A DNA stretch of 52,597 nucleotides from an uncultured Trueperaceae bacterium (GTDB lineage Bacteria > Deinococcota > Deinococci > Deinococcales > Trueperaceae), in contig CAWCXJ010000003.1 in NCBI GenBank assembly GCA_963799485.1, positions 1 to 52,597 on the forward strand, given 5' to 3'. Numbering within the stretch: the first letter of the stretch is position 1; each line of letters starts with the position of its first letter. The translations under genes were made by a program, and so were the position numbers. The notes beneath the pieces were generated by a model. It saw only the letters and a list, made by a program, of their open reading frames with translations, did not search any database and had not been told where the DNA came from. Below are positions 10,529 through 51,772 of this stretch, piece by piece.

Positions 10529-11162
10529 TAGATTCCTCTAACGACAACTTACGGCTTCTATAAAAATGCGCGAAACTTTTGTAGTGCAATCCAAGTTTCG
10601 CGCACAGCTCCGGCATCGCGTACGATTCTGATTCAAATTCAATACGGACACTACAGCGGCGGTTATTTTGTTGCTGAGCAATTGTCGCCCATCTGACGTT
10701 ACCCGGTTCATAATTTCCGTTGTTGTCAATTCGGTCAAGCGAATGTTTGGAACTAGGTCGTTTTCCTACATCAGCGAAAAAAGCCTCAAATGAATTGGCC
10801 CACCTTTCACAAACTTTAATACCCCTATCTGCATATCTTTCGCTAAAGCGGTAATAAGGGGTACACCGTTGCTTCATTGCTATCCAAGCATTGTGTTCCG
10901 GCGTTCGGTTCAAACCATGAGAAGTAGCCCTTTCTTTTCTTAACCGCTGGTTTTCGCAACCACAACTTATTGTGTGACCACAAGTAAAATTGTTACTGTC
11001 CAACTCGACTAAATTTCCACAAGCACAGATGCAAAGCCACCACATGCAGCGGCTGGCATGATTCGTCCGTTTGCCAAGTAGCGTTAAAACAGTAAGTTTG
11101 CCGAAAGTTTTGCCGGTCAAGTCTTTGACTTTACCTAAACTTTTAGGTGGGGTATATTCCAT
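10506..11162 (-). CDS. HNH-type homing endonuclease 1
   Basis: DLTGKTFGKLTV, WLCICACG, SCGC, RYADRGIKVCERW, SLDRIDNNGNYEPGNVRWAT; AT-rich; GGGAGG RBS. Confidence 0.9.
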   Translation of the reverse strand: MEYTPPKSLGKVKDLTGKTFGKLTVLTLLGKRTNHASRCMWWLCICACGNLVELDSNNFTCGHTISCGCENQRLRKERATSHGLNRTPEHNAWIAMKQRCTPYYRFSERYADRGIKVCERWANSFEAFFADVGKRPSSKHSLDRIDNNGNYEPGNVRWATIAQQQNNRRCSVRIEFESESYAMPELCAKLGLHYKSFAHFYRSRKLSLEESINKARRV

Positions 11163-11230
11163 TTGCAGACCTCCCAGTCTGTCGCGCCACGGCAGTGATT
11201 GCGTCACTGAGTCCGTGGCTTAATTATAAC
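11130..11230. promoter_or_regulatory. Convergent promoters around two hairpins (HNH1 leader)
   Basis: Minus TATAAT 11223-11228; plus TTTACC-17-TATATT; hairpins 11166-11181 and 11186-11219. Confidence 0.55.
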
Positions 11231-30950: not shown

Positions 30951-31190
30951 TTAGCCCCCTAACCGCTCCTTTAACTCAGCAACCGTGCCTTCGGTATCAA
31001 GCCCGCGCTGTTCTGCGAGTGCGATGAGTTCAGGCTTTTTAAGGTCGTCCAGGTTAAGCGCTTCAGCCGTTGCCAAAGGGTGGCGGGCGTTGACCCAACG
31101 GTTTGCCACGTCGTCGGGTACCTCGAGGGTTTCGCCCTTAGCCCTGCCTTGGCCGCCGTAACGGGTGGCTCTAAGCAGCGTGGCCTTCAT
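30951..31190 (-). CDS. Small capsid-linked protein with SAP/HeH-like motif
   Basis: LKKPELIALAEQRGLDTEGTVAELKERL. Confidence 0.7.
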   Translation of the reverse strand: MKATLLRATRYGGQGRAKGETLEVPDDVANRWVNARHPLATAEALNLDDLKKPELIALAEQRGLDTEGTVAELKERLGG

Positions 31191-32149
31191 TAGGGTGTAA
31201 CGGCAGGCTCGAGAACACCGAAAGGAAAGCGCGTGGCGTTAGCGCTGTTCTGATAGTTGAGCGAATCCGGCACCGTCCAGGCAACCCGCATGACAGCGCG
31301 TAACGCGACCATATCGTTTTGCATAAGGTTATGCAGAATGGTGCCGTCGGGGGCTTGCACCACGCCTTCGGTAAAGACCTTGATGGTCAGGTCTTGCCTC
31401 ATGGCGTAGATGAGTTTTGTCCAGTCGCCTGCGATTAAGAGCGCGGTGCTAGGGTCAACCGCCCCGGTACGCGGGAAGTAGATCGGCTGCCCGTCGAGTA
31501 CGTATTGCCCGGCTTGCTGCATGTTCTGCATGAAGATGGGGTGCCCATCGGAGCCGCGCAAGCCGCGCAGACGTGCGCGGGCCTGAAGTGCGCCGATATA
31601 GCCGTTGACCATGTAACCGTCTTCCTCAACCGTCGCCACAAGGCCGTCCGTGCTGAGGAGGTCATCATAAAGGTCAGCGCCCGTGCCCGATGCGACCGTA
31701 TTGCCCTTCGCAATCGCTTGCGGGACAATGCCAACAGGCCACGCGTTAGGCTTGTTCGTGCTGTACAGTACCGCCTGGTCGAACGCCTTACCGAACGCGG
31801 TGACGAGCATGGGCGTGATCTGCCCGAAGATGTCATATGACGCATCGGCGATGACGTTTTCCGGCACCGGCACGATGACCGCGAGTTCTTCGGCGTTGAG
31901 GTAGGTATTCGCCCATTCTGCGTTGGTCGTCTGTTTGCGCCCAGTATCAGAAGGGTCAGCCCCGGCGTTGAGGAAGTACGCCTGCGGAAGCGCCGAAAGT
32001 ACGGGAATCCGGGTCTGGGCGGTGCTCATATCGGGGGCGCGGGTAGCCAGCGACATGACGGCGCTTCCCTCCGCGACCTGTTGCACGATGTTTGCTGCGA
32101 CATCCTGGGGGATGAGCGCTTCAGCGTTAGCTCTGCTTACAAATGCCAT
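31190..32149 (-). CDS. Major capsid protein (HK97 fold)
   Basis: ALIPQDV, EELAVIVPV, FGKAFDQAVL, GDW, NLMQNDMVALRAVMR. Confidence 0.95.
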   Translation of the reverse strand: MAFVSRANAEALIPQDVAANIVQQVAEGSAVMSLATRAPDMSTAQTRIPVLSALPQAYFLNAGADPSDTGRKQTTNAEWANTYLNAEELAVIVPVPENVIADASYDIFGQITPMLVTAFGKAFDQAVLYSTNKPNAWPVGIVPQAIAKGNTVASGTGADLYDDLLSTDGLVATVEEDGYMVNGYIGALQARARLRGLRGSDGHPIFMQNMQQAGQYVLDGQPIYFPRTGAVDPSTALLIAGDWTKLIYAMRQDLTIKVFTEGVVQAPDGTILHNLMQNDMVALRAVMRVAWTVPDSLNYQNSANATRFPFGVLEPAVTP

Positions 32150-34108: not shown

Positions 34109-35446
34109 TCAGTAAAACGCGGCGATGCGCTGAGCAAGGTCGGGGTCGGTAGAGGCCGGCACCGTCTGCCGCATCCGCTCGGCTAGGGCTAAGGCGACCA
34201 CACCGTCATCGTGCTCACCGGAGGGTGCACTGTACTTAACGCCGGTTGCACTGTAGACATATTCAAACGCCTCGAGTTCAAACTTTAGACGCGGGTCGCT
34301 GTAATGGATTGTCTGGCTTTGCAGAGCGCTTGCCAACCCTAGCATGAGCTGTTGCTTGCTGGAACTGCTGAATTTGAATCCGACAAGTTTGTCATGCGAC
34401 TCTTGCAACTCTTCGACGATGGGGTCGCCGACGCCGCTCGAGTCGATAAGCGTATGTACGCCCTTAGTTAGCTCGAGTATCTTGCGCTTCGTCTCACCCC
34501 ACGGCCCCTGCCAGCGTTCGCTAAAACACTCGTTACCGTTGGCGTCTAGGCCGATAACCCAAGTCCAGTCAATACTCTTAGCTAAGTCGCACCCGTACAC
34601 ACTTACCGGGTTACTACTCTGTACTGGCCTGTAACACGCTTCAATTGCGCCCAGTCCAAACGGATTCGCCCCATCGTCGGCAGCCTCGGCTTCGTACAGC
34701 TCCTTAAAAACATGCTCGGGTAGGTCACGCCGCGCCTGTTCAACGATATGCGCGTCGATCACGCCGCCTTCGATGGCGTCGGCAGCCGTCAGCCGGTGAT
34801 AGCTCCAACCCGGTTCCCCCGCTTCGGCTTTACGCGCCAGCTTATAGGCGAAATTGCGCCGTCCCTTGACGTTGCCGATCAGTTTGGCGCGTCCCTGCGT
34901 GGCTGTCAACGTCGAGTAGCACGCCGTCCATGCCTGCTCCTTCCAACGGCTGATCTCGTCGGTGACGAGCGTGTACACGTCCTCACCGTAGAGGCTGTCG
35001 GGGTTGTCGGCAGACTTGAACCACCAGCGCGCGCCGTACACGTCGATGTATTTACGGGTGTCGTTTTTAGCGAAGGGGACGGCATTGCCGATCTTCTCGA
35101 GCTTGCCGGACGCGTCTACAAAGCCGCGCAGGTAGTCTTGTGCGCGGCGGTAGGCAATGTCGGCCTGGTCGCTGATAGGCGCGACCCACCAGTGGTTGCC
35201 TCTGCCGCTGCTGTATATCTCCTGGAGCTGCCAGTGCAAGTGACTTAACGTTTTCCCAGCTTTCGTCGTTGCCTCGGTAATGGTGAAGCGGGCAGGGTCG
35301 CTGACGATAGCGGCTTGCTTGGGGTAGAGACTTAGGACGGGGGGGGCGTCAGTTGAGGCTTCGCGCCGCGCCGCTATCCTGTCCCGAAGCGTCGGTAAGC
35401 GTGTCGTAGATACGCCCGAGGAGGGCCGGGTCATGTCCAAACTCAC
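34109..35446 (-). CDS. terL: Terminase large subunit (start uncertain)
   Basis: Walker A TKAGKT, Walker B LVTDE, nuclease GCDLA and HDD. Confidence 0.93.
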   Translation of the reverse strand: MSLDMTRPSSGVSTTRLPTLRDRIAARREASTDAPPVLSLYPKQAAIVSDPARFTITEATTKAGKTLSHLHWQLQEIYSSGRGNHWWVAPISDQADIAYRRAQDYLRGFVDASGKLEKIGNAVPFAKNDTRKYIDVYGARWWFKSADNPDSLYGEDVYTLVTDEISRWKEQAWTACYSTLTATQGRAKLIGNVKGRRNFAYKLARKAEAGEPGWSYHRLTAADAIEGGVIDAHIVEQARRDLPEHVFKELYEAEAADDGANPFGLGAIEACYRPVQSSNPVSVYGCDLAKSIDWTWVIGLDANGNECFSERWQGPWGETKRKILELTKGVHTLIDSSGVGDPIVEELQESHDKLVGFKFSSSSKQQLMLGLASALQSQTIHYSDPRLKFELEAFEYVYSATGVKYSAPSGEHDDGVVALALAERMRQTVPASTDPDLAQRIAAFY

Positions 35447-35864: not shown

Positions 35865-36923
35865 TCACCTCGCTTTCAGTAGGTCTTGTTTGATTTGAAG
35901 TGCAATTGCTCGCATCATCAGAGGTGGAACGCTGTTACCGATACGTTCCCATTGTTGAGCGTATTTTCCGACTAGCTGATAAGAGTCGGGTAATGAGCCG
36001 ACTCGCTTTAGTTCACGTATTGTCAAACGTCTCAGTTCATAGGGGTGACAGCATGAGCAACTTGCACCACTACCGTCTTGTTTCAAGACCGTCCCGGACG
36101 GTCTTGAAAAGTCCAAACGCTTCAAGCCAAAGTGAGAACCGCCGGTAACTTTTGAACCCTGCTCCCAAGGCTTGAGCTGTGCAAGCAGCTGACTTGACCT
36201 TAAGCCGTCTTTGTAGCGACTGTCTTTCAGCTCGTCTTCAGTATTGACCACGCCCTCAAGTGCTTGTCTGAGAGTTATCGGCTTTAGCGTTTGCGCTCTT
36301 GGATAGCTCGGCTTTGTTTTCAAATCTTCACGTACACCGATAAAAATCATTCGCTCTCTTGATTGTGGTACGCTGAAATACATAGCGTTCAGAAGTCTTG
36401 CTGAAACGTTGTAACCGCTCGCTTTTAGCTCTTTTAATATCTCAACAAAAACGAGCTTCATTTTACCCTTGACCATACCGGACACGTTTTCCATCACGAA
36501 CACTTTGGGTTGCAAGCCGCGCAAGAGCCTGACGTACTCTCTAAAAAGCTGATTACGCGGGTCGTCTAAAAGTCTTCGTCCAGCGGTTGAAAAGCCCTGA
36601 CAGGGCGGTGAGCCGTCAAGCACATCTAACCGACCGCGCGCTAAGCCTGTGCGCTCAAGTGTTTCTTCTACGCTCAGTTTGGCAATGTCACCGTGATAGA
36701 TAGCAAGCTCGGGATAGTTGAGTCTTAACGTCTGTACCGCGTTATCATCCCATTCAACCGCTAGCAGCTCATGAAAGCCTGCCATCTTGTAGCCGGTCGT
36801 GCTGCCGCCGCCTCCGGCAAAAGTGCTGATAACTGTCGGCGCGTCCGGTTCTCTAGGCGCTATGGCGTCTTCCCACACCGCACTAAGCAGCTCAGGATAG
36901 CTAAGCCGGGTACTTATGACCAC
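35865..36923 (-). CDS. DNA cytosine-C5 methyltransferase
   Basis: FAGGGG, GSPPCQGFS, ENV, QSRER, IGNSVPP. Confidence 0.95.
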   Translation of the reverse strand: MVISTRLSYPELLSAVWEDAIAPREPDAPTVISTFAGGGGSTTGYKMAGFHELLAVEWDDNAVQTLRLNYPELAIYHGDIAKLSVEETLERTGLARGRLDVLDGSPPCQGFSTAGRRLLDDPRNQLFREYVRLLRGLQPKVFVMENVSGMVKGKMKLVFVEILKELKASGYNVSARLLNAMYFSVPQSRERMIFIGVREDLKTKPSYPRAQTLKPITLRQALEGVVNTEDELKDSRYKDGLRSSQLLAQLKPWEQGSKVTGGSHFGLKRLDFSRPSGTVLKQDGSGASCSCCHPYELRRLTIRELKRVGSLPDSYQLVGKYAQQWERIGNSVPPLMMRAIALQIKQDLLKAR

Positions 36924-37395
36924 ACGACGGGCACTCGAGCATCTTCACGCTGTCCCCCACACTTTCATCAAATTCTCTAAACTCGGGCTCTTTTAGGTCG
37001 TTTAGCAATTCGTCCAGATCATCAGAGCTGAACCCCGTCCCCTCGAGACCCCCATCATCCACCAACTCTTTTAGCAGTTCAGCTAGCGCCGCGTCGTCAT
37101 TCGTCGCACTGTCTGAAGTTTTGTTGTCGGCTAAAAGAATACGCAAAGCAGCGTTATCGTCAACGTCAATAAACTTGACCGGCACTTCTTTTGCGCCGGA
37201 GTCTAGCGCAGCCTTCCAGCGGTGATTACCGACGATGATACGGCCTGTGCTCTTTTGCACAATGATGTCGCTATAGAATCCGTTGGCGTTGATACTCTCA
37301 TAAATGAGTCCAACGTCACCTTGGCGCACGTTGCGTTCATGCGGCCTAATGCTGTCTATGGCGACAGTCTGATACTCGCCTTTTATCGTTTGCAT
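36901..37395 (-). CDS. ParB/Srx N-terminal domain protein
   Basis: IIVGNHRWKAA, LADNK, terminal CPSCGH. Confidence 0.85.
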   Translation of the reverse strand: MQTIKGEYQTVAIDSIRPHERNVRQGDVGLIYESINANGFYSDIIVQKSTGRIIVGNHRWKAALDSGAKEVPVKFIDVDDNAALRILLADNKTSDSATNDDAALAELLKELVDDGGLEGTGFSSDDLDELLNDLKEPEFREFDESVGDSVKMLECPSCGHKYPA

Positions 37396-37414
37396 ATACC
37401 CCCATACCCTCGAG

Positions 37415-37600
37415 CCAAAGAAAAAGGCCCGCATCGGGCCGTTTAAGTAATTTTGAGACAGAACTTTTGTTAAAGATTAGCACAAAAGAAATCAGCCACC
37501 TAAAAAGCGAGCGGGTGCGGTACGTTTAGCAAAAGATGCCCCGTAGGGCACCATTTGACAGAATTCTCTAGGCAAAATCTAGCATAATTTTAGCAACACA
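37415..37600 (-). promoter_or_regulatory. Late-control region: extended -10 promoters each followed by a terminator
   Basis: TGcTAAAAT, TGcTAGATT, TGcTAATCT; hairpins 37537-37550 and 37426-37440 with T-runs. Confidence 0.55.
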
Positions 37601-37601
37601 G

Positions 37602-38198
37602 TCAAGTTTGCGCCGCACTAACCGCTTCTTTGATCTTCTCTTCCGCGCTCTTTCTCGCCTCTTCGATTTCACGAGCGGCTGTACTCGAGACCCGCACCAC
37701 CTCGGCACGCCCCAGTAACCGTAAACTCAGCTCTGCCGTGCGCTCGTCCACTTCGGGATTACGGGCCATGTAGTAACCGCCGCCTCTGGTTTCGCTATGA
37801 ACCTTGAAATGCCACACCGCCCGCGTCGCCCTATGCAACACCAGGTCATCCCAAACGGCAGCCTCTTCCCGGCTCAGCTCATAGTGAAAGCTCTCGTAAT
37901 GGTCGCGGGGCATAAAGATGGCGTGCGGTGGGCAACCCAGGCGCGGTTCGGAAAGCGACAGCGTTTTAAGAAACTCGGCGTCGGGGGGGGTCTGCTCGAG
38001 GCCAGCGTGACCACCAAGCGTGCGAAAGCCGAGCCAGCCCATACCGGATGTTCTCATCGGCCAGCCGGAGCGCTCGCAGCGGCGCAAGGCTAGAAATAAA
38101 TCATTCGCCAAATGCCTCTGGCAGTTCACTGAGTTCTCTACTCGCTTACGTTTCAGTTGCTTCAAAACATCGTCCCATCGACACGGTAGACTATTCAC
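37602..38198 (-). CDS. Putative late-gene regulator (Q-like position)
   Basis: Last early gene before the late-control region; function by position only. Confidence 0.45.
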   Translation of the reverse strand: MNSLPCRWDDVLKQLKRKRVENSVNCQRHLANDLFLALRRCERSGWPMRTSGMGWLGFRTLGGHAGLEQTPPDAEFLKTLSLSEPRLGCPPHAIFMPRDHYESFHYELSREEAAVWDDLVLHRATRAVWHFKVHSETRGGGYYMARNPEVDERTAELSLRLLGRAEVVRVSSTAAREIEEARKSAEEKIKEAVSAAQT

Positions 38199-38237
38199 GC
38201 ACGGTAGAGCCCTCAGTTGGCGCTGAGGGCTGTTTTT

Positions 38238-38375
38238 TTAGAGTTGACTTCGCATTTCAGGAAAACGCCTTATCCAGCCCGCAAACTGTTCGGGGTAGGC
38301 TGTACGCCACTCCGACCAGGCACCGTGCCGGTAAATCGCTTCACTTGCGCGCCCCGCACCAAAGGTGAAATCACT
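38238..38375 (-). pseudogene. C-terminal fragment resembling type IV-B CysH-like protein
   Basis: G..SEWRTAYPEQFAGWIRRFPEMRSQL*; no start of its own. Confidence 0.4.
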
Positions 38376-38679
38376 GCGGGCGTCCGGGCTCGGCGACGAT
38401 TTTAGGCCAACGCAGCGTGTCGCCGACAGCCAGCACATTACGGTGGGTGCGCTTGGGGTCGCTGTAGAGCCACGCGCACGCTCCGCAGCAGTGCGTGCCG
38501 AAGCGGAAAAAGTCGGCGTGCTGGGCAAACGTCGGATTGTTGATAACGGCGGTTTGCACGCCTTCTGTTAGGGGCGCGGCGCAAGTCGAACAAACCCCCG
38601 TAACAGGCTCGAGCACCCATTTCCCTTCAGGGCGTCCGGCGGCGTACCATAGGTGTTGTGGGGCGCTAAGGTACTGCAT
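38371..38679 (-). pseudogene. csf1: Truncated Csf1 (type IV Cas8-like) N-terminus
   Basis: GVCSTCA...PTFAQHADFF...CCGACAW zinc pattern; GGAGG RBS; stops at 102 aa. Confidence 0.6.
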
Positions 38680-39040
38680 AGACCTCCTTCAAAACTTCTG
38701 CCGCGTCCTCATGCCCGCGCATGGTCAGCACCCGGCAAACATCGAACAAAAGCGCCTTACGCGCCCGGTCTCCCAGCGGTACGTTTTGCAGGGCGGTAAG
38801 TTCTTTCTCAAGCCTGAGCTTTTCTTTCACGGCACTTTTAGCTATCTCTCGGAGCGAATCCCGCCGTTCTAAGGCGTACTCAGTACACCGTTTCGGGTCG
38901 TTGTAAAACTCGCTGCCTCCGGGCGTCAAGCTTTCAAGCATATTTTTCAGCCGGACATTTTCAGCCTCAAGCGCCTGAATCCGGGCCTCGGCGGTTTCGG
39001 TTGCGGGGCTCACGACTCGGCCTTTTGCTCTTGTAACCAA
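38666..39040 (-). CDS. Hypothetical coiled-coil phage protein
   Basis: SLTPGGSEFYNDPKRC motif. Confidence 0.65.
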   Translation of the reverse strand: MVTRAKGRVVSPATETAEARIQALEAENVRLKNMLESLTPGGSEFYNDPKRCTEYALERRDSLREIAKSAVKEKLRLEKELTALQNVPLGDRARKALLFDVCRVLTMRGHEDAAEVLKEVYAVP

Positions 39041-39273
39041 AAAAGCTGATAATGGCGGTGAAACTTTGAGCAGAGCGTGTAGCGCTCTAAAAGCTTATTA
39101 CCCCAGCCGACGACCTTTTGAGCGTAATTCAAATGCCGTAGATAGCGCCTAGCGGTAGACGGGGCAACTCCTGCGAGCTTGGCTATTTCTGGGGCGCTCA
39201 GCGGCTTGCCCTGCTGTGCTATAAGCACCTTTTTTATCTTGCTTTGCTCAGCGGTCACGTCGGAACCTCCCAA
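39010..39273 (-). CDS. Winged-HTH protein
   Basis: LSAPEIAKLAGVAPSTARRYLRHL. Confidence 0.75.
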   Translation of the reverse strand: MGGSDVTAEQSKIKKVLIAQQGKPLSAPEIAKLAGVAPSTARRYLRHLNYAQKVVGWGNKLLERYTLCSKFHRHYQLFWLQEQKAES

Positions 39274-39722
39274 AGTTCAATGTAGAAATGGTCTCGAGTA
39301 CTCGTCTTGAGACGCGGGCGGCACGTCCAGTCTCTTAGGTGCGCGGGTTTGTCGTCGGGTACAAGCACGCCTTTTACAAGGTCGCCGCAGAAGTTTAGAA
39401 CGTTATCCGAATCGAGCCAGCTACGGCGGTTTGAGTAGTTGACCGTCACCGTCATGTCGTAGCAGCCGGGTAGGGGTGGGCCGGGGTGAAGGGCGCGTAA
39501 CTGTGCTTGGGCGTCTCTCAGGGCATCACGGGCGGCTTTCGACATAAACGAACGCCCGTTACCTAGTGCGCGGCTGTTTTTGGTGCTGACTGGACGCCCT
39601 TCAATACGGTAGGCAAGGGCTTTTAACATTCCCTTGCCTACCTGCTTGGTAGGTTTGTCGCTGAACAAATCGGGGTTCCTTCTCCGCACAGCTTCCGAGG
39701 CGTGGGTGAGGTCTTTAGGCAT
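39255..39722 (-). CDS. rusA: RusA-like Holliday junction resolvase
   Basis: PVSTKN...DSDN...GDL..G...DDK acidic motifs. Confidence 0.7.
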   Translation of the reverse strand: MPKDLTHASEAVRRRNPDLFSDKPTKQVGKGMLKALAYRIEGRPVSTKNSRALGNGRSFMSKAARDALRDAQAQLRALHPGPPLPGCYDMTVTVNYSNRRSWLDSDNVLNFCGDLVKGVLVPDDKPAHLRDWTCRPRLKTSTRDHFYIELWEVPT

Positions 39723-40020
39723 GGTCGGCCTCCTCTACCTCGAGCTCTTCAGCCCATCCCTTGCCCTTCTCAGCGGGTGGCGTATATTTTGCGAACCCCG
39801 GTTCGCCCTCGTCCGCTATCCGCATCGCCATAGCCGCAACCTGCACTGCCTCTCGGTACACGTCGGCTGACGACACGCCCTCTCCGTATTCCTCCTCAAG
39901 TAGCGCGTTAGCTAGTTCACCTACCTCCTCCATCAGCGCAGCTAAAAGGTGTTTGTTGCCCGGAAACTTTGCACGGGCGCGGTTTACTTCAGTCAGTACG
40001 TCAGCTAAAAAACGGTTCAT
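39715..40020 (-). CDS. MazG-like nucleotide pyrophosphohydrolase
   Basis: LMEEVGELANA...EAVQVAAMA. Confidence 0.75.
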   Translation of the reverse strand: MNRFLADVLTEVNRARAKFPGNKHLLAALMEEVGELANALLEEEYGEGVSSADVYREAVQVAAMAMRIADEGEPGFAKYTPPAEKGKGWAEELEVEEADHA

Positions 40021-40505
40021 TGTTGCTCCTCAGCGGGTAAGGTGTCTACCTCAAACTCCGGTTTCAGCCTTCGGTACATCTCTCTCACCGGGTCGATGGT
40101 GTTAAACCCCATCAGCTCACGCGCTCGGCTCATGGTGATAACTTCACCGTGATACAGCTCTAGGATGCTCCGGCGTAGAAAGTCGCGCTCTTTTTTCCAC
40201 GCGCTTGCCTCACGGTAAAGCTGTGCTTTTTGCTGCTCGCTTTCATCCCAAACGTGCAACAGTAGCCCCACCATCTCGATAAGCTCTCCGGGAGTAGCGT
40301 CTGTTTTTTCGTCAAACGCCGCCGCTTGCATCCGGTTCAGGTCATCGCGTCTCAGCTCGACCCGGTAGACGCTAACGAGCGCCATATCTCGCGGTGCGTG
40401 CATGAGCGCGAGTTCGTGAGCGGCTTTGTCGTGGTCGGCGTAAACAACCTGAGTAAAGCCCCTACCTGTCGTGGTGTCGGCTAGGTAGTCGGCACGGTAT
40501 TTCAT
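40017..40505 (-). CDS. Hypothetical protein
   Basis: ATGA-coupled early gene. Confidence 0.6.
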   Translation of the reverse strand: MKYRADYLADTTTGRGFTQVVYADHDKAAHELALMHAPRDMALVSVYRVELRRDDLNRMQAAAFDEKTDATPGELIEMVGLLLHVWDESEQQKAQLYREASAWKKERDFLRRSILELYHGEVITMSRARELMGFNTIDPVREMYRRLKPEFEVDTLPAEEQQ

Positions 40506-40768
40506 CGAAGTATCAAAACGGGTGAAGTGTCGGCGAGTATCTCTAGCTCTTGCCACGCCCTATCCAGTTCGCTGCTTACGGCTAACGCCCACTTGCGAGT
40601 AACGTTTTCGTCTGGAAAACAGAGTGTCGAAAGCTCTACGCTGATAGCGCGGTGCTTCAAGACTTCGATAGCCTCTTGCAACGCCTTCTTTCGTGTGCTG
40701 CCCAGCTCAGCCCTCAGCGCGGCGTTTTCTTCACGGAGGCGTTCAAGGTCGGTTTCGGGGTAAAACAT
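40502..40768 (-). CDS. Hypothetical protein
   Basis: GGAGG RBS; coupled to next gene. Confidence 0.6.
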   Translation of the reverse strand: MFYPETDLERLREENAALRAELGSTRKKALQEAIEVLKHRAISVELSTLCFPDENVTRKWALAVSSELDRAWQELEILADTSPVLILR

Positions 40769-41932: not shown

Positions 41933-42439
41933 TCATCGGCGGTAAAACGTCCCTTCTAACGTACAATCCTCGAGAATCCTTAAAGCTTTTTTTCCGAAAC
42001 CCGCCATAAGGCTGGGCTCAAAACCGCCGACCGCGCCACCTTTACGTGGCCTTTCGCTTTCGCCATCCGGCAGCACGTACTTAACCCGGCCCCGAATTAA
42101 AAACAGCGCATCGGGCGGGTAATCGTGCAAAAAAGCGCCGTCAGTATTTCCGCGAACAAGTGCGATACCGGAACCGTGCGCGTGAAGCTTGGCTATCCAT
42201 TTCGTCTTTTCGCCGCGTGTCCAGGGAGGGTTGACCCAGACGAGGCCGTGCCAAGGCAGCTCAAGGCCGTTTTCGCCGCGCTGCAACGAGTAAGTCCGAC
42301 CCACGAAGGGCGTCATAGGATAAACACAATCCGGGGCGCAGGGGTCAAGGTCAAAGTGCGCGTTTAGACCCAAACCGATAGAGAGCGGGGTATAGCGAGA
42401 AACTTCTTTAGAGTGACCAGGCATTATTTGCTTGTTCAT
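41933..42439 (-). CDS. Phage DNA N6-adenine methyltransferase (Dam-like)
   Basis: RYTP, FDLDPCA, NGLELPWHGLVWVNPPW, GRVKY; ATG overlaps the HNH2 stop. Confidence 0.88.
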   Translation of the reverse strand: MNKQIMPGHSKEVSRYTPLSIGLGLNAHFDLDPCAPDCVYPMTPFVGRTYSLQRGENGLELPWHGLVWVNPPWTRGEKTKWIAKLHAHGSGIALVRGNTDGAFLHDYPPDALFLIRGRVKYVLPDGESERPRKGGAVGGFEPSLMAGFGKKALRILEDCTLEGTFYRR

Positions 42440-43095
42440 CGCCGCCGACTCCGGGTAAATGGTGCGGTAAGTGCTCGCTCTGCATCCCAACCGCGACGTA
42501 AACGCTGACCAACTGAGTTGGGCCGCAACCTTAGACGCCGCTCCCAAGCGTCAACCGTGAGTGTTAGCCCTTGAAAAGTGATGAAACGGTTCCGACGCGT
42601 GTTGCACGCCTGTTCTTGCCGAGTTGCCCAGCGACAGTTTTCAGGTGAATAGGGGCCGTCGTTGTTATCGCGTTCAAGCGTGTGCCCTTCCGGGCGCTCT
42701 CCCATATCGGCTAAAAAGTTTTCAAAACTGTGGAGCCAGCGGTCACAAATCTTAATACCTCGAGCCCCATAATCGGCATAACTTTTACTGTTTTGGTTTA
42801 AGCAACGCTTTTTCATACCGCTATACACTTCATATGTACGTGAAGCAGATAGACCGTGGGTCGTATTAGCGCCGGAGACAACCTCACCCCGCAAACAGCC
42901 ACAAGACTTAGTGTGACCGCTACGCAATTTTGTCCCCTGAACCAATTTTGTTACACCGCAGTCGCACTCACAAAGCCAGTACAACGTTCTTCTGGCATTA
43001 GCAAATGGTTCTAGCGCTGTTAATCTTCCGAATTTTTGACCACGGATGTTTACGGAATAGCTTTTAAGCTCAACGACATGAGTATAATCCGACAT
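42436..43095 (-). CDS. HNH-type homing endonuclease 2 (paralogue of HNH1)
   Basis: GQKFGRLT, WLCECDCG, SCGC, YGARGIKICDRW, TLERDNNDGPYSPENCRWAT; AAGGAGG RBS. Confidence 0.9.
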   Translation of the reverse strand: MSDYTHVVELKSYSVNIRGQKFGRLTALEPFANARRTLYWLCECDCGVTKLVQGTKLRSGHTKSCGCLRGEVVSGANTTHGLSASRTYEVYSGMKKRCLNQNSKSYADYGARGIKICDRWLHSFENFLADMGERPEGHTLERDNNDGPYSPENCRWATRQEQACNTRRNRFITFQGLTLTVDAWERRLRLRPNSVGQRLRRGWDAERALTAPFTRSRRR

Positions 43096-43165
43096 GTGAC
43101 CTCCTTGTAGGTCGCCGCGCCGGGAGTGTTGCAAGCACGTCCCGGCTGACTCGTCTATCATAGCA
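43083..43165. promoter_or_regulatory. Convergent promoters around two hairpins (HNH2 leader)
   Basis: Minus TGcTATGAT 43157-43165; plus TATAAT 43083-43088; hairpins 43098-43113 and 43119-43146. Confidence 0.55.
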
Positions 43166-43185
43166 CGTCCAGCACGCAAAAACTC

Positions 43186-43236
43186 TGTATACCGCTCAAT
43201 CTGCCGGGAATGCGCGGGCATCGTTTGAGCACTCAT
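43186..43236 (-). pseudogene. Orphan 17-codon N-terminus of the methyltransferase
   Basis: MSAQTMPAHSRQIERYT vs MNKQIMPGHSKEVSRYT, 9/17 identical. Confidence 0.75.
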
Positions 43237-43604
43237 CTAAACAATTCCACTTCTTCGGTCGTCCGGTATTTCACCCCGAAAGTCTGCTCATAAGCGGTTC
43301 GCTGAGCGTCTAGGGCGCGGTTGATATCTTCAACTCGAGCCGACTGGTACTCAATAATTTTTCTTGCGGTGTATTCGTCGCGAGCCGCGCAGTAAACTTT
43401 GCGCGAAGGGTCAAAGCCGATAATCCAAACCCGACCATCCGACATAGGCCGGGTAGCGGCGAGCGTCCGGCAAGCGTTTACCGCGTCGCGGGCCGTCCGG
43501 TCGTCGCATTTGAGTTTGGCGGCCAGGTTGAGGCGGGTCAAACCGTCCGGGTGCGTGGTCAACAGCCGGTAGACTTCGCGGGCCAGCTCGAGGTTGGCTG
43601 CCAT
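43233..43604 (-). CDS. Winged-HTH protein
   Basis: LTRLNLAAKLKCDDRTARDAV. Confidence 0.65.
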   Translation of the reverse strand: MAANLELAREVYRLLTTHPDGLTRLNLAAKLKCDDRTARDAVNACRTLAATRPMSDGRVWIIGFDPSRKVYCAARDEYTARKIIEYQSARVEDINRALDAQRTAYEQTFGVKYRTTEEVELFR

Positions 43605-44860
43605 TAAAAACTCCTTGCCGCACTTTCATAAGATGCATAACGACCGCGCCAATGAATCGGCACCGATCCGGTCGCGCCTACTTTGTTCTTGAGCACGTGC
43701 CAGACGGCTGTTTGCTCTTCGTTCGTGCTAATCGTCGTGTCCCGGTCAAGAGCCATCACGATGTCAGCGTCCTGCTCAATTTGACCCGATCCGCGCAGCA
43801 TGGATAAGCTCGGAGCTTTGCCGCGTTCAAAACCTCGGTTGAACTGGGCAAGCGCCAAAATCGGAATACGAAGGGTGAAAGCGAGCGTCTTGAGCGCTTT
43901 TGACGCAGCCGTTACGCTTTCGTATTCGTCGCTGTGGCCGGTGTCTAAAATTTGCAGATAATCAATCACAACCAGGCTCGGAGTATTCGTTTTGATTAGA
44001 GTAATCAGGCTTTCCAACCGAACCGGCGTGTCAACCAGAGTCACACGGTCACGCCAAACTTTCTCGCGCACATCACGGATACCTTGCGCCACTTCGTCAA
44101 ACGGCATACGCTGCACCGCTTTGGTGTCAAGGCGCTTGTGACGGGCGATTTCCAGCTCGAGAATTTGGTTCTCGCTTTGGTCTGGGCTGTACCACAACAC
44201 CCGGTCGCCACGAGCTGCAACGTTCCGAATGATCCCACGAGCTAGCGCAGACTTACCTACGGAGGGACGTGCAGCCAAAATGTTGAGCCCAGGCTTTGCA
44301 ATCCCTCCGGTGAGATGGTCAAAATCGCCGTAGCCTGTTGCGTAGCGTGATCCCGGCCCGATAAGTCGCGCCAAGTCTTCATCACTGCGCTCGTCAAAAC
44401 TGGAAACGGCGCTGTCTAAAATTGTCAGCACCGCGTCAAGTTCAAGCCGCGCTTCGTTTTGGTCGTCGCCTTTGGCTATCGCCGACTGGTACTTAAGTGC
44501 AGCTTTTCCTTTTTCGCGCACCACGTATAATTCCTTAACCTGCTGGGCGTAAAGATAGGCATAAGCACTCGTCGGGTGATAGTCGCCGCCGAAGATGTGT
44601 GTAAGTGGGTTGAGAACGTCCAGAGCTATCGTAAAGTCACCCCGCACTCGGAACGCTGCCACAACGGTAGCAAAGTCGAACGCGCCGTGCTGAGCGTACT
44701 GACGCTGTATCTCATCCCAAACGTGCCGGTTGCGCTCACCGTAAAAAACCTCGGTTGGCATCGCGGCCCACGGTTCACCTAAGCAGTCCGGATGACAGAA
44801 GCAGCACGCCAAAAGCGTCAGCTCGAGGTCTTGATCGTGCCGGTGGATTAGTTCGGACAT
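43604..44860 (-). CDS. dnaB: Replicative DNA helicase
   Basis: AARPSVGKS, VVIDYLQ, LAQFNR, LRGSGQIEQDAD, KNK.G.TG. Confidence 0.95.
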   Translation of the reverse strand: MSELIHRHDQDLELTLLACCFCHPDCLGEPWAAMPTEVFYGERNRHVWDEIQRQYAQHGAFDFATVVAAFRVRGDFTIALDVLNPLTHIFGGDYHPTSAYAYLYAQQVKELYVVREKGKAALKYQSAIAKGDDQNEARLELDAVLTILDSAVSSFDERSDEDLARLIGPGSRYATGYGDFDHLTGGIAKPGLNILAARPSVGKSALARGIIRNVAARGDRVLWYSPDQSENQILELEIARHKRLDTKAVQRMPFDEVAQGIRDVREKVWRDRVTLVDTPVRLESLITLIKTNTPSLVVIDYLQILDTGHSDEYESVTAASKALKTLAFTLRIPILALAQFNRGFERGKAPSLSMLRGSGQIEQDADIVMALDRDTTISTNEEQTAVWHVLKNKVGATGSVPIHWRGRYASYESAARSF

Positions 44861-46286: not shown

Positions 46287-47178
46287 TTAGGCTGCGGTCT
46301 GCTCTAGCTGAGCGTCGTACTCGAGACCGGCTTGATAATCGGTGTAGTCTTGAAACGCTTTTTCAAGTTTGGTTCGCTCCGTTCTAAAATCACCATTTGA
46401 CCCTGAACCGAGCGCGTCGAGCGCCCGTTGTGCCTGGTCTTTGGTAAGCTGTTTTGCACTTTCAAGCCCACCCACATCAGCCAGCCATGCCAAAAACGCG
46501 CGGCCTTGCTCTTTACCCTGCTCACTTACCCCGAACCCCGCCTCTTTGATGGCGATACCGAGCGCTGTGAGCTGTTTCGGCGTGACGGTTTTGGGGCCGC
46601 TTGGCTGCTTAGGTGGCGAGGCCGTCTCAGGCAAACTCAGCACGTTCCCTTCGGCGTCTACCGACGCGCCCAATTCTTCGGGCAAATACCCGACCACGCC
46701 TAGCGCATCTGGCGCAAACCAGCGTTGACCGTTACTCATAGCGCGCGCGTAGAGCATGTTGCGCGGGTAATTTTTCCAGGTCGGATTGTTTAAGAGATTC
46801 GCACGTTTGGCATCGTCGATACTAAAGTCGCTTTGCCCGACCTCTTGCCACTCACTGCCCCAGCGTTCGTAAAAGGCAATTTTGCACAGTTCATCGGTAT
46901 GCTCTGAGCACCCGAAAGTTATAGCGGCCCGAACGTTTGACGGCAATCGCCATAAGGTTTGCGCTAAAAGTCGGCTTACCTTGGATGATGTGAACCCCGG
47001 TCATGCTCTGGAATCCACCAAATCCGCTCTCAACACCTGCAAGGATTCGTATAGCGCACTGTGCGGCGTCTTTTGAGTCTTTGAAAAATCCCGAAGCGGC
47101 AAATAACTCCGCCATCCGCTCAAGGTCATCCATGCTGCGAATCGCCGGGGCGTTCGCTATTTGTGTAAGTTCAGTCAT
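46287..47178 (-). CDS. RecT/Red-beta-like single-strand annealing protein (one extra base near 46905)
   Basis: HIIQGKP, W..YPRNMLYARA..R.FAPDAL; removing one A from CTCAGAG joins the two ORFs. Confidence 0.8.
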
Positions 47179-47319
47179 AGGTATCTCCACAATCTGGGCA
47201 AATCCCAAGCCCCACCGTTTTAAGTCCCTTGCACGTCTTGCACCTACTTCTGCGCTCAACCCAGAGCAGCCCCACAACCAGCCCCAGAGCGCTCAGTGAA
47301 CCGACCACAGGCCACCAGG

Positions 47320-48480: not shown

Positions 48481-48728
48481 CAGCGCACTCCTTTGGCGTT
48501 GCAAACGACCGTCCACCCGGCTTTTTTGGCTCGCCGCGTGTAACCGTCGACTAATAGCGCACGCCCCATCGGTGCCCAAAGTTCGTCAACGCTTTTTAAT
48601 ACGGCGCGCACTTTGCGCCTGATAAGCAACTCTTCGGCCTCATCTGGACGAAGGAACTGTACGGTCAAGCCGGGGGGTTGGAGGGGTAGCTCGAGACCTG
48701 GCTTTTCGGCTATGAGTGCCTTTGTCAT
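48480..48728 (-). CDS. Hypothetical protein
   Basis: ATGA-coupled. Confidence 0.55.
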   Translation of the reverse strand: MTKALIAEKPGLELPLQPPGLTVQFLRPDEAEELLIRRKVRAVLKSVDELWAPMGRALLVDGYTRRAKKAGWTVVCNAKGVR

Positions 48729-49483
48729 GCCGTCACCGCCATAGATTCGAGTACCGCCTCACATACAGCCTTACTGAGGGGCGGAGGCACCGCATTGCCG
48801 AGTAGCCGCTGAGCTGTTCGGGTCGGAAATGGCGGCACAGGTAGGCACTGAAGTTCAGCCCGTTCCTCGAGTGACCGGCCCGGCCTGATGACCTCACGGG
48901 TTTTTATGTCAAGCATGTAATGACCTACGTTTTCGGTTGCGAGTACGGCATACGTCCCGGCGAGCGGCGTACCCCTAGACAAGCCGACTAACCCCGCGCC
49001 CAAAACGATGATGCAACGTTGCCGAAACTGCCTTACGCCGTGTTCGTTGCTACGCGGTGTCAACACCTGCATAGTCAGCCCCAGACGGTGACAGGCGGCG
49101 TTCAGCTCGGCTATTTCGGCCTTACCCTCTTTGCTGTGCAGCAGCCCCATGACATTCTCGATTACCGTCACGGCGGCGTACCGGCACTGCTCGGCAAGGT
49201 AGGCCAAGCTGTAATACTCGGGGTGCGCTTTGCCTCGTTTCGGCGTGCGATTTGCCAAGCTGTAGGGCTTACAACTTGGACTAGCCCAGACGAACAGCCC
49301 GCGCAACTCTTCGGCGTCGACCGTCCGCACGTCCCGAAGCTCGCACGGTATATCGGGCTCGAGCCATCTATGCGCCTCAACCTCTTGCGGGCTGTAATCG
49401 TAGGCTTTCACGACTTTCAGCCCCGCCTGTTTCATCCCCCTTGACGCCCCGCCAAACCCGCAGAAAAGCGCAGTCGCATTCAC
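48725..49483 (-). CDS. Compact DNA cytosine-C5 methyltransferase
   Basis: LFCGFGG, SPSCKPYS, ENV, QFRQR, GNAVPP. Confidence 0.88.
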   Translation of the reverse strand: MNATALFCGFGGASRGMKQAGLKVVKAYDYSPQEVEAHRWLEPDIPCELRDVRTVDAEELRGLFVWASPSCKPYSLANRTPKRGKAHPEYYSLAYLAEQCRYAAVTVIENVMGLLHSKEGKAEIAELNAACHRLGLTMQVLTPRSNEHGVRQFRQRCIIVLGAGLVGLSRGTPLAGTYAVLATENVGHYMLDIKTREVIRPGRSLEERAELQCLPVPPFPTRTAQRLLGNAVPPPLSKAVCEAVLESMAVTA

Positions 49484-49586
49484 AACCGCACCCCCAACAC
49501 CGCAAACGCCAGCACCGAGAGCACCGCAACCTCTGAGAGCCCGTGTCCGAGTGCTGCGCCGAACAGAAGGGCAAAGGCGAGGCGTT

Positions 49587-49772
49587 TCACTTACCACTTC
49601 CGTTGAACACCGCGCCTAAAACGAAGACGATGATTGCTAGAGCCCACACAGGTGCGTGAATGTTGAACGCCGCAGCAAGAGCTAGCGACAAAAGCCAGCC
49701 CAAACCGAATGACACTAGAACCGACAATCCTAAAACACCGATGACGATGAGCGTCCAGATGTACCACTTCAT
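49587..49772 (-). CDS. Small membrane protein
   Basis: Two hydrophobic stretches; ATGA-coupled. Confidence 0.6.
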   Translation of the reverse strand: MKWYIWTLIVIGVLGLSVLVSFGLGWLLSLALAAAFNIHAPVWALAIIVFVLGAVFNGSGK

Positions 49773-50804: not shown

Positions 50805-50941
50805 TACTATGAACAATCTTAGTAGATATAGATATACAGATGCGCCCTCCTTCCACAAGAGGTTAAATTCTTCATTCTCCTTTCATAAACTGGCGTTTCC
50901 CTTGACAGGGTTGCTTTATTCTACTATGAATGTTCTTAGAT
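50805..50941. promoter_or_regulatory. Immunity switch with two operator copies
   Basis: TACTATGAAcaaTCTTAG at 50805 and TACTATGAAtgtTCTTAG at 50922; near-palindromic. Confidence 0.7.
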
Positions 50942-51772
50942 ATGCAAGCACTACTAAGAACTGACGTAGACTTCGCCACATGGCAGGACTTTTTTGTGAT
51001 CGCTAATCAATATAGTTTGACGAGCGTTCTCAAAGAGAAGCGCCTTGATACCGGGGTGAAACAGGGGTGGATTGGCGAACCGTTTGGCATGGATCAAACG
51101 ACGGTCAGCCTTTACGAACGCGAAACGCACCGTATCAAAGCGCGCGGCGCAGAGTTCGCGGTGCAATTCATAAGCAGATACGGGTTTGCACTCGACGAAG
51201 CTCGAGGTTTAGCAAAACCACTTTTCGACGATTTAATAGAAGATTTGAAAAGTGTTCTGCCACCCAACGATTTGCCTGAACTCCCAGGCGTCGGTAAACT
51301 GGTTGAAATACCGATTTTACAAGCCCAAGGGGGAACTCAAGAAGACCATAACGCGGCTGGTCGGGGAGTTAGGGGGGGAAGGACGTTACAGCTTGCCGAG
51401 GTGTATTTAGACGGGCACAAACCGGAAAATTGCCGAGTGGTCGAAGTGTTTGGCTACAGTATGGCATGTGAAGATTTGCGTTTAAGTTTTCAACCCGGTC
51501 ATCGCTTCATCATTGACATAGTTGAAGAGCCGCAGGAGGGGGACATACTCGTAGCCGACCTGTTCAAGTACGGTGAGTGGCACCGCATATTCAAGATATT
51601 TGGGCGTGAGGGGCGCATCGTTTTACGGAGCTACAACGATCGTTACGAACCTATTGTGCTCGAGGAAGGAGATGAGCTTATAAAAGTTGGGGTTTATATA
51701 AACCGAATCACTGAAGATCGGGCTGAGATGCGGCGCTTAAACAGAGCGCGTATGAAGAAAGCTCGAGAGTAA
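50930..51772 (+). CDS. CI-like repressor (XRE HTH plus S24 peptidase)
   Basis: QTTVSLYER helix; GYSM serine; IFK lysine; LRSYN..YEPI. Confidence 0.9.
   Translation: MFLDMQALLRTDVDFATWQDFFVIANQYSLTSVLKEKRLDTGVKQGWIGEPFGMDQTTVSLYERETHRIKARGAEFAVQFISRYGFALDEARGLAKPLFDDLIEDLKSVLPPNDLPELPGVGKLVEIPILQAQGGTQEDHNAAGRGVRGGRTLQLAEVYLDGHKPENCRVVEVFGYSMACEDLRLSFQPGHRFIIDIVEEPQEGDILVADLFKYGEWHRIFKIFGREGRIVLRSYNDRYEPIVLEEGDELIKVGVYINRITEDRAEMRRLNRARMKKARE

What the first reader, a model, noticed from the sequence alone, without database searches (positions are those of the whole stretch)
38238..38679. Apparent deletion scar of a type IV-B Cas locus (csf1 5' end joined to cysH 3' end)
Seen: a CxxC...F...CGAC protein with a good RBS stops abruptly at EPGRPQ*, and another frame continues ...WRTAYPEQFAGWIRRFPEMRSQL*. 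Known: type IV-B loci (csf1, cas11, csf2, csf3, cysH-like) are array-less and sit on mobile elements. Inference: the first and last genes were joined by a multi-kb deletion near 38372, so relatives may carry an intact system just before the late regulator.
Basis: partly seen in the sequence, partly recalled or inferred. Interest (0 to 1): 0.7.

Follow-up and report, generated by a model that had tools for sequence, protein, structure and literature searches.

The report
Deleted type IV-B CRISPR cassette scar
A prophage carries only the two outer ends of a five-gene type IV-B CRISPR-like cassette, joined by a roughly 3-kb deletion, so it is a dead remnant of a known system rather than a new one.

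Summary
On the minus strand, 38679-38374 encodes the first 102 residues of a Csf1 (small Cas8) homologue with its CxxC...CxxC zinc finger (PADLOC typeIV_Cas8 E 1.2e-10). 33 of 51 homologues are full length, 221-318 aa. One base out of frame, 38381-38241 encodes the last 47 residues of a CysH-like PAPS-reductase protein. It is the only significant hit in the window (E 6e-7) and the best of two at E <= 0.001 in the genome (3.3e-5).

Relatives on viral contigs carry intact csf1-cas11-csf2-csf3-cysH cassettes of about 3.5 kb, so roughly 3 kb is missing. No cas11, csf2 or csf3 was found anywhere in the host genome.

A sister prophage on contig C2 of the same genome has a deeper scar: about 13 csf1 codons fused to about 19 cysH codons. 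Four of 51 database homologues are Csf1-N::CysH chimeras with other junctions.

Phage-borne type IV-B is already in print. This is a decayed member of a known kind. Reads across the junction could not be obtained. Earlier agents of this scan noted intact phage-borne IV-B modules on other DNA.

The parts
38683..38689 (-). Shine-Dalgarno-like AAGGAGG, 3 nt before the ATG of the csf1 remnant
   Evidence: Sequence read directly.
38374..38679 (-). First 102 codons of a Csf1 (type IV small Cas8) homologue, carrying the zinc-finger N-terminal domain with Cys30, Cys33, Cys65 and Cys68. The start overlaps the end of the upstream ORF (38666-39040) by 14 nt.
   Evidence: PADLOC PDLC01721 typeIV_Cas8 E 1.2e-10, residues 23-81 on profile positions 19-76 of 227. 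TIGR03114 E 0.006, far under its cut-off. My own Csf1 profile covers positions 2-96 of 235, E 1e-39. Homologues are mostly 221-318 aa.
38371..38373 (-). TGA stop of the remnant. It stands where homologues have a nearly invariant Trp (RPxW) and is made of bases that the cysH frame reads as AGT GAT.
   Evidence: Alignment A1, W104 conserved in at least 90% of sequences. Codon table.
38373..38382 (-). Deletion junction zone. CGC CCG CAG reads R-P-Q in the csf1 frame, and GCC CGC AGT reads A-R-S in the cysH frame. Up to about 7 nt are ambiguous, which could be microhomology.
   Evidence: codons. (Csf1 'GRPxW'). (CysH '..ARSGFxFA..').
38241..38381 (-). Last 47 codons of a CysH-like (PAPS-reductase family) gene, one base out of frame with the csf1 remnant. 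Stop at 38240-38238.
   Evidence: Profile of 14 cassette CysH-like proteins: E 6.1e-7 in the window and 3.3e-5 in the whole genome, profile positions 226-253 of 256. BLASTP: 46.5% identity over 43 aa to residues 207-248 of 250 of L005_13959-14711, E 3e-11 against the loci ORFs.
38208..38231 (+). G+C-rich hairpin (10 pairs) directly after the cysH stop. The T-run follows it on the + strand only, so it looks like a terminator facing the operon. C2 has a different hairpin sequence at the same place.
   Evidence: scan. (C2 alignment). Function not tested.
37602..38198 (-). Downstream ORF (198 aa by the longest reading) with no family assignment. Mismatches to C2 fall mostly on third codon positions from about 37990 leftwards, so that frame is coding.
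   Evidence: no hits. (alignment to C2).

Best explanation
The stretch 38238-38679 (minus strand) is the scar of an internal deletion in a phage-borne, array-less type IV-B CRISPR-Cas-like cassette.

- Inferred ancestor: csf1-cas11-csf2-csf3-cysH, about 3.5 kb, read as part of the phage's early/middle operon.
- Deletion: an illegitimate recombination event, possibly at a few bases of microhomology within CGCCCGC, joined codon 102 of csf1 to the 47th codon from the end of the cysH-like gene, one base out of frame. That removed about 3 kb: the rear 55-60% of csf1, all of cas11, csf2 and csf3, and the front four fifths of cysH.
- Shown: both ends are homologous to the respective genes. Relatives hold the intact cassette. 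No other cassette gene is present in the genome. A sister prophage has a deeper scar in the same place.
- Inferred: the deletion mechanism, the size of the loss, and the absence of any remaining system function. At most, a 102-residue zinc-finger fragment of Csf1 may still be translated from its intact ribosome-binding site and start codon.
For: 1. Csf1 identity of the 5' piece.
- PADLOC typeIV_Cas8/Csf1 models hit at E 1.2e-10, 1.2e-6 and 7.4e-6.
- TIGR03114 hits the first ~70-95 positions in register in 13 of 17 homologues, best 1.7e-6.
- An AlphaFold model of the full-length homologue P0004 (pLDDT 91.5) matches chains of three type IV-A effector complexes over residues 4-231: Z 12.4, 10.6 and 7.7, with the next entry at 2.4. 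Foldseek gives E 4e-5.

2. Truncation. Of 51 other representatives, 33 cover the whole 235-position profile and are 221-318 aa. The nearest full-length ones are 63-65% identical, at 274 and 261 aa.

3. CysH tail. It is the only significant hit of the cassette CysH profile in the window (6.1e-7) and the best of two at E <= 0.001 in the genome (3.3e-5). It sits at the extreme C-terminus of the profile. BLASTP gives 45-46% identity over 42-43 aa to the ends of two CysH-like proteins.

4. Intact relatives. In the loci, the gene next to csf1-like is followed by typeIV_Cas11, typeIV_Cas7 (down to 1e-34) and typeIV_Cas5 (down to 4.5e-34), then PF01507 PAPS_reduct above its cut-off. Complete csf1-to-cysH spans are 3460-4429 bp.

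5. No cas11, csf2 or csf3 in the 99.99%-complete genome, with my profiles at E <= 10 or with TIGR03116.

6. Second scar on contig C2. 40 nt of the csf1 start (95% identical to the window) abut the last ~19 cysH codons with a 3-nt overlap, GCC. C2:1880-58740 is a mosaic relative of the whole window.

7. P0027, P0028, P0032 and P0033 are Csf1-N::CysH chimeras with four further junctions.
Against: - No ancestor or close relative of this phage with the intact cassette was found, so the exact breakpoints, the microhomology and the deleted length are inferred from relatives that are at most 65% identical.
- The tail homology rests on 28-47 residues.
- NCBIfam's curated Csf1 model scores far below its cut-off (16 bits against 140). 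The family is a divergent branch, not the TIGR03114 equivalog.
- The tool output does not say which subunit the matched PDB chains are. That they are Csf1/Cas8 rests on their length and on the PADLOC hits.
- Raw reads of this assembly were not available. The only public run found held a 151-nt contig outside the junction, so an assembly collapse is not formally excluded.
Confidence: 0.9

Rival explanations
1. The deletion is real, but the remnant is not dead. The 102-residue Csf1 zinc-finger fragment is kept and expressed as a stand-alone factor, for example a DNA-binding protein or a dominant-negative competitor of type IV complexes of co-infecting elements.
For: - The ORF is intact, with a start codon, GGAGG and translational overlap with the upstream gene.
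- All four zinc-ligand cysteines are kept.
- In type IV-A, the Cas8 (Csf1) zinc-finger N-terminal domain contacts the PAM DNA (PMC11519345, passages read).
- Several other N-terminal-only forms exist, such as P0024 (102 aa) on a 40-kb viral contig.
Against: - The sister prophage kept only about 13 codons of it, so the fragment is dispensable in a near relative.
- In the model of the full-length homologue, the cut at residue 102 falls inside the central sheet: strands 83-86 and 89-91 are kept, and 119-160 are lost.
- The short forms end at scattered positions with unrelated tails.
- The search was seeded with the N-terminus, so N-terminal remnants are found by construction.
Confidence: 0.08
2. 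The junction is an assembly artefact. The real genome has an intact cassette, and the assembler collapsed or mis-joined it.
For: Reads could not be checked. The window is a whole contig of a 15-contig draft with a related prophage on another contig, which is a situation prone to assembly trouble.
Against: - No cas11, csf2 or csf3 sequence lies on any of the 15 contigs of a 99.99%-complete assembly. Unassembled cassette reads would normally give a contig.
- csf1 and cysH share no repeat that would make an assembler jump.
- An independent, different junction lies on C2.
- Chimeras of the same kind occur in four unrelated database proteins.
Confidence: 0.02

Closest known systems
Subtype IV-B CRISPR-Cas (csf1, cas11, csf2, csf3 plus a cysH-like gene), as described by Pinilla-Redondo et al. 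2019/2020 (PMC7038947, passages read), reviewed in PMC8175902 (passages). The Mycobacterium sp. JS623 Csf complex is PMC7937560 (abstract only).
   Same: - The two remnants match the first and last genes of that architecture.
- Relatives have all five genes in that order, with no CRISPR array in the DNA examined.
- The system sits on a mobile element. IV-B is reported on plasmids and 'sometimes prophages', with a 'nearly invariant' cysH association.
   Different: - Here only 102 codons of csf1 and 47 codons of cysH survive, so the effector genes are gone and it is not a working system.
- The family is divergent. The NCBIfam equivalog models TIGR03114/5/6 score far under their cut-offs even for the intact relatives.
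Virus-borne type IV-B systems, e.g. the 'Fuxiviridae' of Bathyarchaeia (PMC10848311, passages read), which also cites type IV systems in prophages and lytic phages.
   Same: A type IV-B module carried by a tailed virus, with the CysH-like gene adjacent to the effector genes.
   Different: Those are intact, and one has a mini-array. This one is a deletion remnant in a bacterial prophage.
Type IV-A Cas8/Csf1 (PDB 8rc3, 7xg1, 8rc2; PMC11519345, passages read)
   Same: The full-length homologue of the window's fragment has the same overall fold (Z 12.4, 10.6 and 7.7 over about 200 residues) and an N-terminal zinc-finger domain.
   Different: - Sequence identity is 9-16%.
- IV-A works with DinG, Cas6 and an array, none of which accompany this family.
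- The subunit identity of the matched chains is not stated by the tool.

Membership tests
Subtype IV-B CRISPR-Cas locus (functional system) | Full-length csf1 (small Cas8-like large subunit, about 220-290 aa) | tested here: not met
   Only residues 1-102 are present, covering profile positions 2-96 of 235. 33 of 51 homologues are full length.
Subtype IV-B CRISPR-Cas locus (functional system) | cas11-like small subunit gene | tested here: not met
   A profile of 5 Cas11-like proteins from the related cassettes gave no hit at E <= 10 in six frames of the whole genome.
Subtype IV-B CRISPR-Cas locus (functional system) | csf2 (Cas7) and csf3 (Cas5) genes | tested here: not met
   My own profiles gave no hit at E <= 10 in the genome. 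TIGR03116 gave no hit at E <= 0.01, but that search's control genomes also gave none, so it is weak on its own.
Subtype IV-B CRISPR-Cas locus (functional system) | Adjacent cysH-like (PAPS-reductase fold) gene | tested here: not met
   Only the last 47 codons remain. The PP-loop and the PAPS_reduct domain core are absent.
Subtype IV-B CRISPR-Cas locus (functional system) | No CRISPR array, cas6, dinG or adaptation genes beside it | tested here: met
   A crude exact-20-mer spaced-repeat scan found no array in the window and one low-complexity hit on C2. Rfam gathering scan of the window found nothing. The flanking ORFs have no Cas family hits.
Csf1 / type IV Cas8 protein family (homology of the 102-aa fragment) | Significant match to curated Csf1 profiles, in register from the N-terminus | tested here: met
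   PADLOC PDLC01721, PDLC01002 and PDLC01479 at E 1.2e-10 to 7.4e-6. The full-length homologue P0003 matches PDLC01721 over 9-228 on profile positions 5-212 of 227, E 8.8e-15.
Csf1 / type IV Cas8 protein family (homology of the 102-aa fragment) | Score above NCBIfam TIGR03114 equivalog cut-off (140 bits) | tested here: not met
   The window fragment scores 16.3 bits. The best homologue scores 27.8 bits. This is a divergent branch.
Csf1 / type IV Cas8 protein family (homology of the 102-aa fragment) | Csf1 fold with an N-terminal zinc-finger domain | tested here: met
   Tested on the full-length homologue P0004, not on the fragment itself: Z 12.4, 10.6 and 7.7 to chains of type IV-A complexes. 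The four Cys are conserved in at least 90% of 29 sequences. The subunit name of the matched chains is not given by the tool.
Cas-associated CysH-like (PAPS reductase, PF01507) family (homology of the tail) | PAPS_reduct domain | tested here: not met
   The tail has no Pfam hit, because the domain lies upstream of what survives. The intact relatives hit PF01507 above its cut-off.
Cas-associated CysH-like (PAPS reductase, PF01507) family (homology of the tail) | C-terminal extension typical of the cassette's CysH-like proteins (...G.W..WR..YPE.F..W..RFPE...) | tested here: met
   The motif wording is read from the alignment printed.

The most novel reading that the evidence does not exclude
Collapse of the cassette between csf1 and cysH is not neutral decay but a recurrent, selected outcome. 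Phage-borne type IV-B modules would then be costly, or targeted, once the phage is resident, and would be purged repeatedly while the two ends are spared. The 5' end may be spared because the Csf1 zinc-finger fragment or its translational coupling is still useful. The 3' end may be spared because it carries signals for the downstream genes. The two nested scars in one genome, plus four independent chimeras elsewhere, would then be snapshots of a common pathway and would bear on what IV-B costs or does.
Probability: 0.1. Interest if true: 0.5.

Novelty: new member of a known kind. Interest (0 to 1): 0.3.

Why it matters
By itself it matters little. It is a pseudogene remnant of a system that is already known and already reported on phages and prophages.

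It does show that a temperate phage lineage once carried a type IV-B module and lost it. It gives six different csf1-to-cysH deletion junctions: two in one genome and four in database proteins. That suggests these enigmatic cassettes are often shed from mobile elements.

For annotation, it warns that small 'hypothetical' zinc-finger ORFs of this kind, and Csf1::CysH 'fusion proteins' in databases, are deletion products and not new architectures.

Tried and rejected
- **Library searches on the fragments.** Pfam, PHROGs and NCBIfam gave nothing significant apart from a weak TIGR03114 hit. PADLOC's models were the ones that resolved it.
- **Public phage genomes.** No DNA match for 36500-40600, and one marginal protein match at E 0.05.
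- **Relatives' genomes.** In 40 genomes of the same genus, family or order, the 102-aa protein was found only in the window's own genome.
- **The search for related loci with alignment A1.** It failed because A1 had no conserved stretch. Smaller alignments worked. No locus was more than 51% identical, so no near relative with an intact cassette was obtained.
- **Profile against PDB sequences.** No Csf1 chain was found. Only the fold comparison found them.
- **Reads across the junction.** One public run held a tenth of the sampled words. When laid, it gave a single 151-nt contig at 38719-38869, outside the junction. This is no test of the assembly, and I draw no habitat from it.
- **Synteny.** BLASTP of 20 window genes around the scar against all ORFs of the related loci matched only the Csf1 piece. 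The cassettes sit in unrelated phage backbones and at different places: after tail genes, among head genes, beside RecET, near the terminase. 'Just before the late regulator' is therefore not a general position.
- **Programmed frameshift.** A frameshift joining the two frames was considered and dropped. The stop is created by the junction itself, the sister copy and the database chimeras have other junctions, and no slippery site was looked for.
- **Rfam.** A gathering-threshold scan of the window found nothing.
- **Literature.** A search for csf1 + cysH + deletion + CRISPR returned one general review.

Full report
**What is there.** The window is the whole of contig C3 of a 15-contig, 3.66-Mb genome. 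It is a tailed-phage genome or prophage read almost entirely on the minus strand:
- large terminase, 34109-35446
- major head protein, 31190-32149
- DnaB-like helicase, 43604-44860
- a repressor on the plus strand, 50930-51772

The finding lies between the early/replication genes and a ParB-like/methylase/terminase block. That block follows a RusA-like gene (39255-39722), an HTH protein and a coiled-coil ORF.

On the minus strand, an ORF of 102 codons runs from the ATG at 38679 to a TGA at 38373-38371. GGAGG lies 3 nt before the ATG, and the ORF overlaps the upstream ORF by 14 nt. One base out of frame, a second frame runs to a TAA at 38240-38238 and ends ...HGAWSEWRTAYPEQFAGWIRRFPEMRSQL.

**The 5' piece.** Pfam and PHROGs gave nothing. 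NCBIfam gave only a weak, in-register hit to TIGR03114 (Csf1), E 0.006 and 16 bits against a cut-off of 140.

An exhaustive phmmer search of 1.84 billion representatives found 51 other proteins at E <= 1e-3, and the query always aligns to their first ~100 residues.
- 33 cover the whole 235-position family profile and are 221-318 aa long
- 2 lack the N-terminus
- 12 are shorter or carry unrelated tails
- 4 are chimeras (see below)

The nearest full-length proteins are 63-65% identical, at 274 and 261 aa.

PADLOC's models settled the identity:
- The window's 102 residues hit typeIV_Cas8 'Csf1_0_IV' at E 1.2e-10, and two further Csf1 models at 1.2e-6 and 7.4e-6.

An AlphaFold model of the full-length homologue P0004 (41-sequence alignment, pLDDT 91.5) matches chains of 240-263 residues in three type IV-A effector complexes over residues 4-231. 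VIA-align gives Z 12.4, 10.6 and 7.7, with the next entry at 2.4. Foldseek gives E 4e-5.

The tool does not name the subunit. The published description of these complexes says that Cas8 (Csf1) has a zinc-finger N-terminal domain, a central sheet and a C-terminal domain (PMC11519345, passages read). That fits the four conserved cysteines of this family.

The window's TGA stands exactly where the family has a nearly invariant Trp, in RPxW.

**The 3' piece and the relatives.** Seventeen viral contigs, one MAG contig and a few metagenome contigs encode relatives of the Csf1-like protein. In them, the gene is followed by four others:
- a ~150-aa protein, typeIV_Cas11, down to 5e-8
- a ~280-aa protein, typeIV_Cas7, down to 1e-34
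- a ~250-aa protein, typeIV_Cas5/Csf3, down to 4.5e-34, and TIGR03116 at 6e-21
- a ~250-aa PAPS-reductase-domain protein, PF01507 above its cut-off

With my own profiles, the loci sort as follows:
- 10 loci show the complete order csf1-cas11-csf2-csf3-cysH, of which 9 are distinct (L020 repeats L002). Eight span 3460-4429 bp. In L005 the cysH-like gene lies further downstream.
- Others show cas11-csf2-csf3-cysH-csf1.
- Some are cut by contig ends.

These are type IV-B-like cassettes on viral DNA.

A profile of 14 of their CysH-like proteins was searched with all filters off against every six-frame piece.
- Of the window's 1924 pieces, it hit only the finding's second frame (E 6.1e-7, next best 0.55), at profile positions 226-253 of 256, which is the extreme C-terminus.
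- Against the whole genome's 103,064 pieces, that frame was again the best hit, at 3.3e-5.
- BLASTP extends the homology to 43 residues at 46.5% identity, to residues 207-248 of 250 of one CysH-like protein.

So the tail is the last ~47 codons of the cassette's cysH-like gene (38381-38241).

**The junction.** The csf1 frame reads G-R-P-Q-stop at 38385-38371. The cysH frame reads D-A-R-S-D-F at 38384-38367. Csf1 homology runs to R-P(-Q), and CysH homology starts at A-R-S. The join therefore lies within 38373-38382. About 7 nt (CGCCCGC) can be read as either parent, which may be microhomology or chance.

The join is one base out of frame, and the stop codon is made of cysH bases. Subtracting the 442-bp remnant from typical cassettes of about 3.5 kb gives a loss of about 3 kb. 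This figure is inferred from distant relatives, not measured.

**Nothing else of the system survives.** My profiles for Cas11, Csf2 and Csf3 found nothing at E <= 10 in six frames of all 15 contigs of the 99.99%-complete genome. TIGR03116 found nothing either, though its control genomes also gave nothing. No CRISPR array was seen by a crude spaced-repeat scan.

**A second scar in the same genome.** The genome-wide CysH search also gave a weak hit on contig C2. When read, it is ...LSAPQHLWHAA-YPEQFAGWLQRFPEMRNLC*. That is about 13 csf1 codons (40 nt, 95% identical to the window's) abutting the last ~19 cysH codons in frame, with a 3-nt overlap, GCC.

C2:1880-58740 is a mosaic relative of the whole window, at 75-98% identity in blocks. 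The C2 scar lacks 337 nt that the window's scar still has. It is either a second, nested deletion or an independent deletion of an intact cassette, and I cannot tell which. Either way it argues against an assembly artefact and against selection for the 102-residue fragment.

Homology between the two prophages begins exactly at the csf1 start codon. Upstream they differ.

**The same thing elsewhere.** Four of the 51 representative homologues carry a Csf1 N-terminus and a CysH piece in one protein, each with a different junction:

| Protein | Csf1 part | CysH part |
|---|---|---|
| P0027 | residues 1-~86 | N-terminus |
| P0028 | residues 1-~165 | last ~29 residues |
| P0032 | to the RPW motif | last ~60 residues, starting at LRIYD |
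| P0033 | residues 1-~141 | C-terminal half |

The nearest viral-contig relative of P0032's N-terminus (80% identity) lies on the contig of L011, where csf1, cas11 and csf2 are whole and csf3 runs off the contig end. On another viral contig (L018), a 107-aa remnant is followed by unrelated DNA.

Part of this pattern is expected from how I searched. The query was the N-terminus, and deletions that run out of an accessory cassette into needed genes would not survive.

**Comparison with what is known.**
- Subtype IV-B is defined by csf1, cas11, csf2 and csf3, no array, and a nearly invariant cysH-like neighbour. It is reported mainly on plasmids and sometimes on prophages (PMC7038947, passages; PMC8175902, passages).
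- Virus-borne IV-B, and type IV in prophages and lytic phages, are in print (PMC10848311, passages).
- Earlier agents of this scan noted many intact phage-borne IV-B modules on other DNA.
- I found no description of csf1-to-cysH deletion scars with the searches.

As a system, the window fails every membership feature except the absence of an array. As homology, both pieces pass. So this is a degraded member of a known kind.

**Limits.**
- No reads of the source assembly could be laid.
- No near relative with an intact locus was found.
- I did not see the supplementary tables of the type IV surveys, which may list degraded loci.

**Verdict.** Interest is low to moderate. The recurrent collapse between csf1 and cysH is the only part that might repay a systematic survey.

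Noticed in passing
G000 contig C2, about 19100-19220 (+); whole C2:1880-58740 compared with window 1-52597: A second, mosaic sister prophage lies in the same genome, at 75-98% identity in blocks. It carries its own deeper csf1::cysH scar, a 39-codon ORF.
   Followed up: yes
window 37960-38160: A ~200-nt tract is 100% identical between the window and C2, inside a region that is otherwise about 75-88% identical. It suggests recent recombination between the two prophages, or a strongly constrained element at the 5' end of the downstream ORF.
   Followed up: partly
window 38208-38231: A terminator-like hairpin lies directly after the cysH stop, with its T-run on the opposite (+) strand. C2 has a different hairpin sequence at the same place. 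It may stop antisense transcription or act in both directions.
   Followed up: partly
L014:3701-8987: This is a cassette variant with no CysH-like gene found in the locus (L014 was not in the PADLOC search). Directly after csf1 comes a QueC homologue (TIGR00364 above its cut-off, PF06508 6.6e-54), then an unassigned 248-aa ORF. After csf3 comes a DNA polymerase III beta clamp gene.
   Followed up: partly
C-termini of full-length Csf1-like proteins P0003, P0004, P0005, P0007, P0009, P0012, P0034, P0053, P0054: Many end in short motifs such as ...QLQLL...GLGLL...LSLFDFD and ...HRLF. These resemble sliding-clamp-binding peptides (the consensus is recalled, not tested). Earlier notes of this scan raised the same lead. 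The window's copy has lost this end.
   Followed up: no
L015, L017, L023, L027-L029: An alternative gene order, cas11-csf2-csf3-cysH-csf1, occurs in several viral and metagenome contigs, with cysH overlapping the csf1 start.
   Followed up: partly
window 46287-47277 (-): Two overlapping ORFs, 46891-47277 and 46287-46946, hit successive parts of the same RecT-like PHROG (phrog_561, positions 300-375 and 413-549). This is possibly a frameshifted recT, another sign of a decaying prophage.
   Followed up: no
window 10506-11207 and 42436-43236 (-): Two paralogous HNH endonuclease genes (phrog_374) sit in one phage genome, together with three DNA methyltransferase-like genes: 35865-36923, 41933-42547 and 48725-49597.
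   Followed up: no
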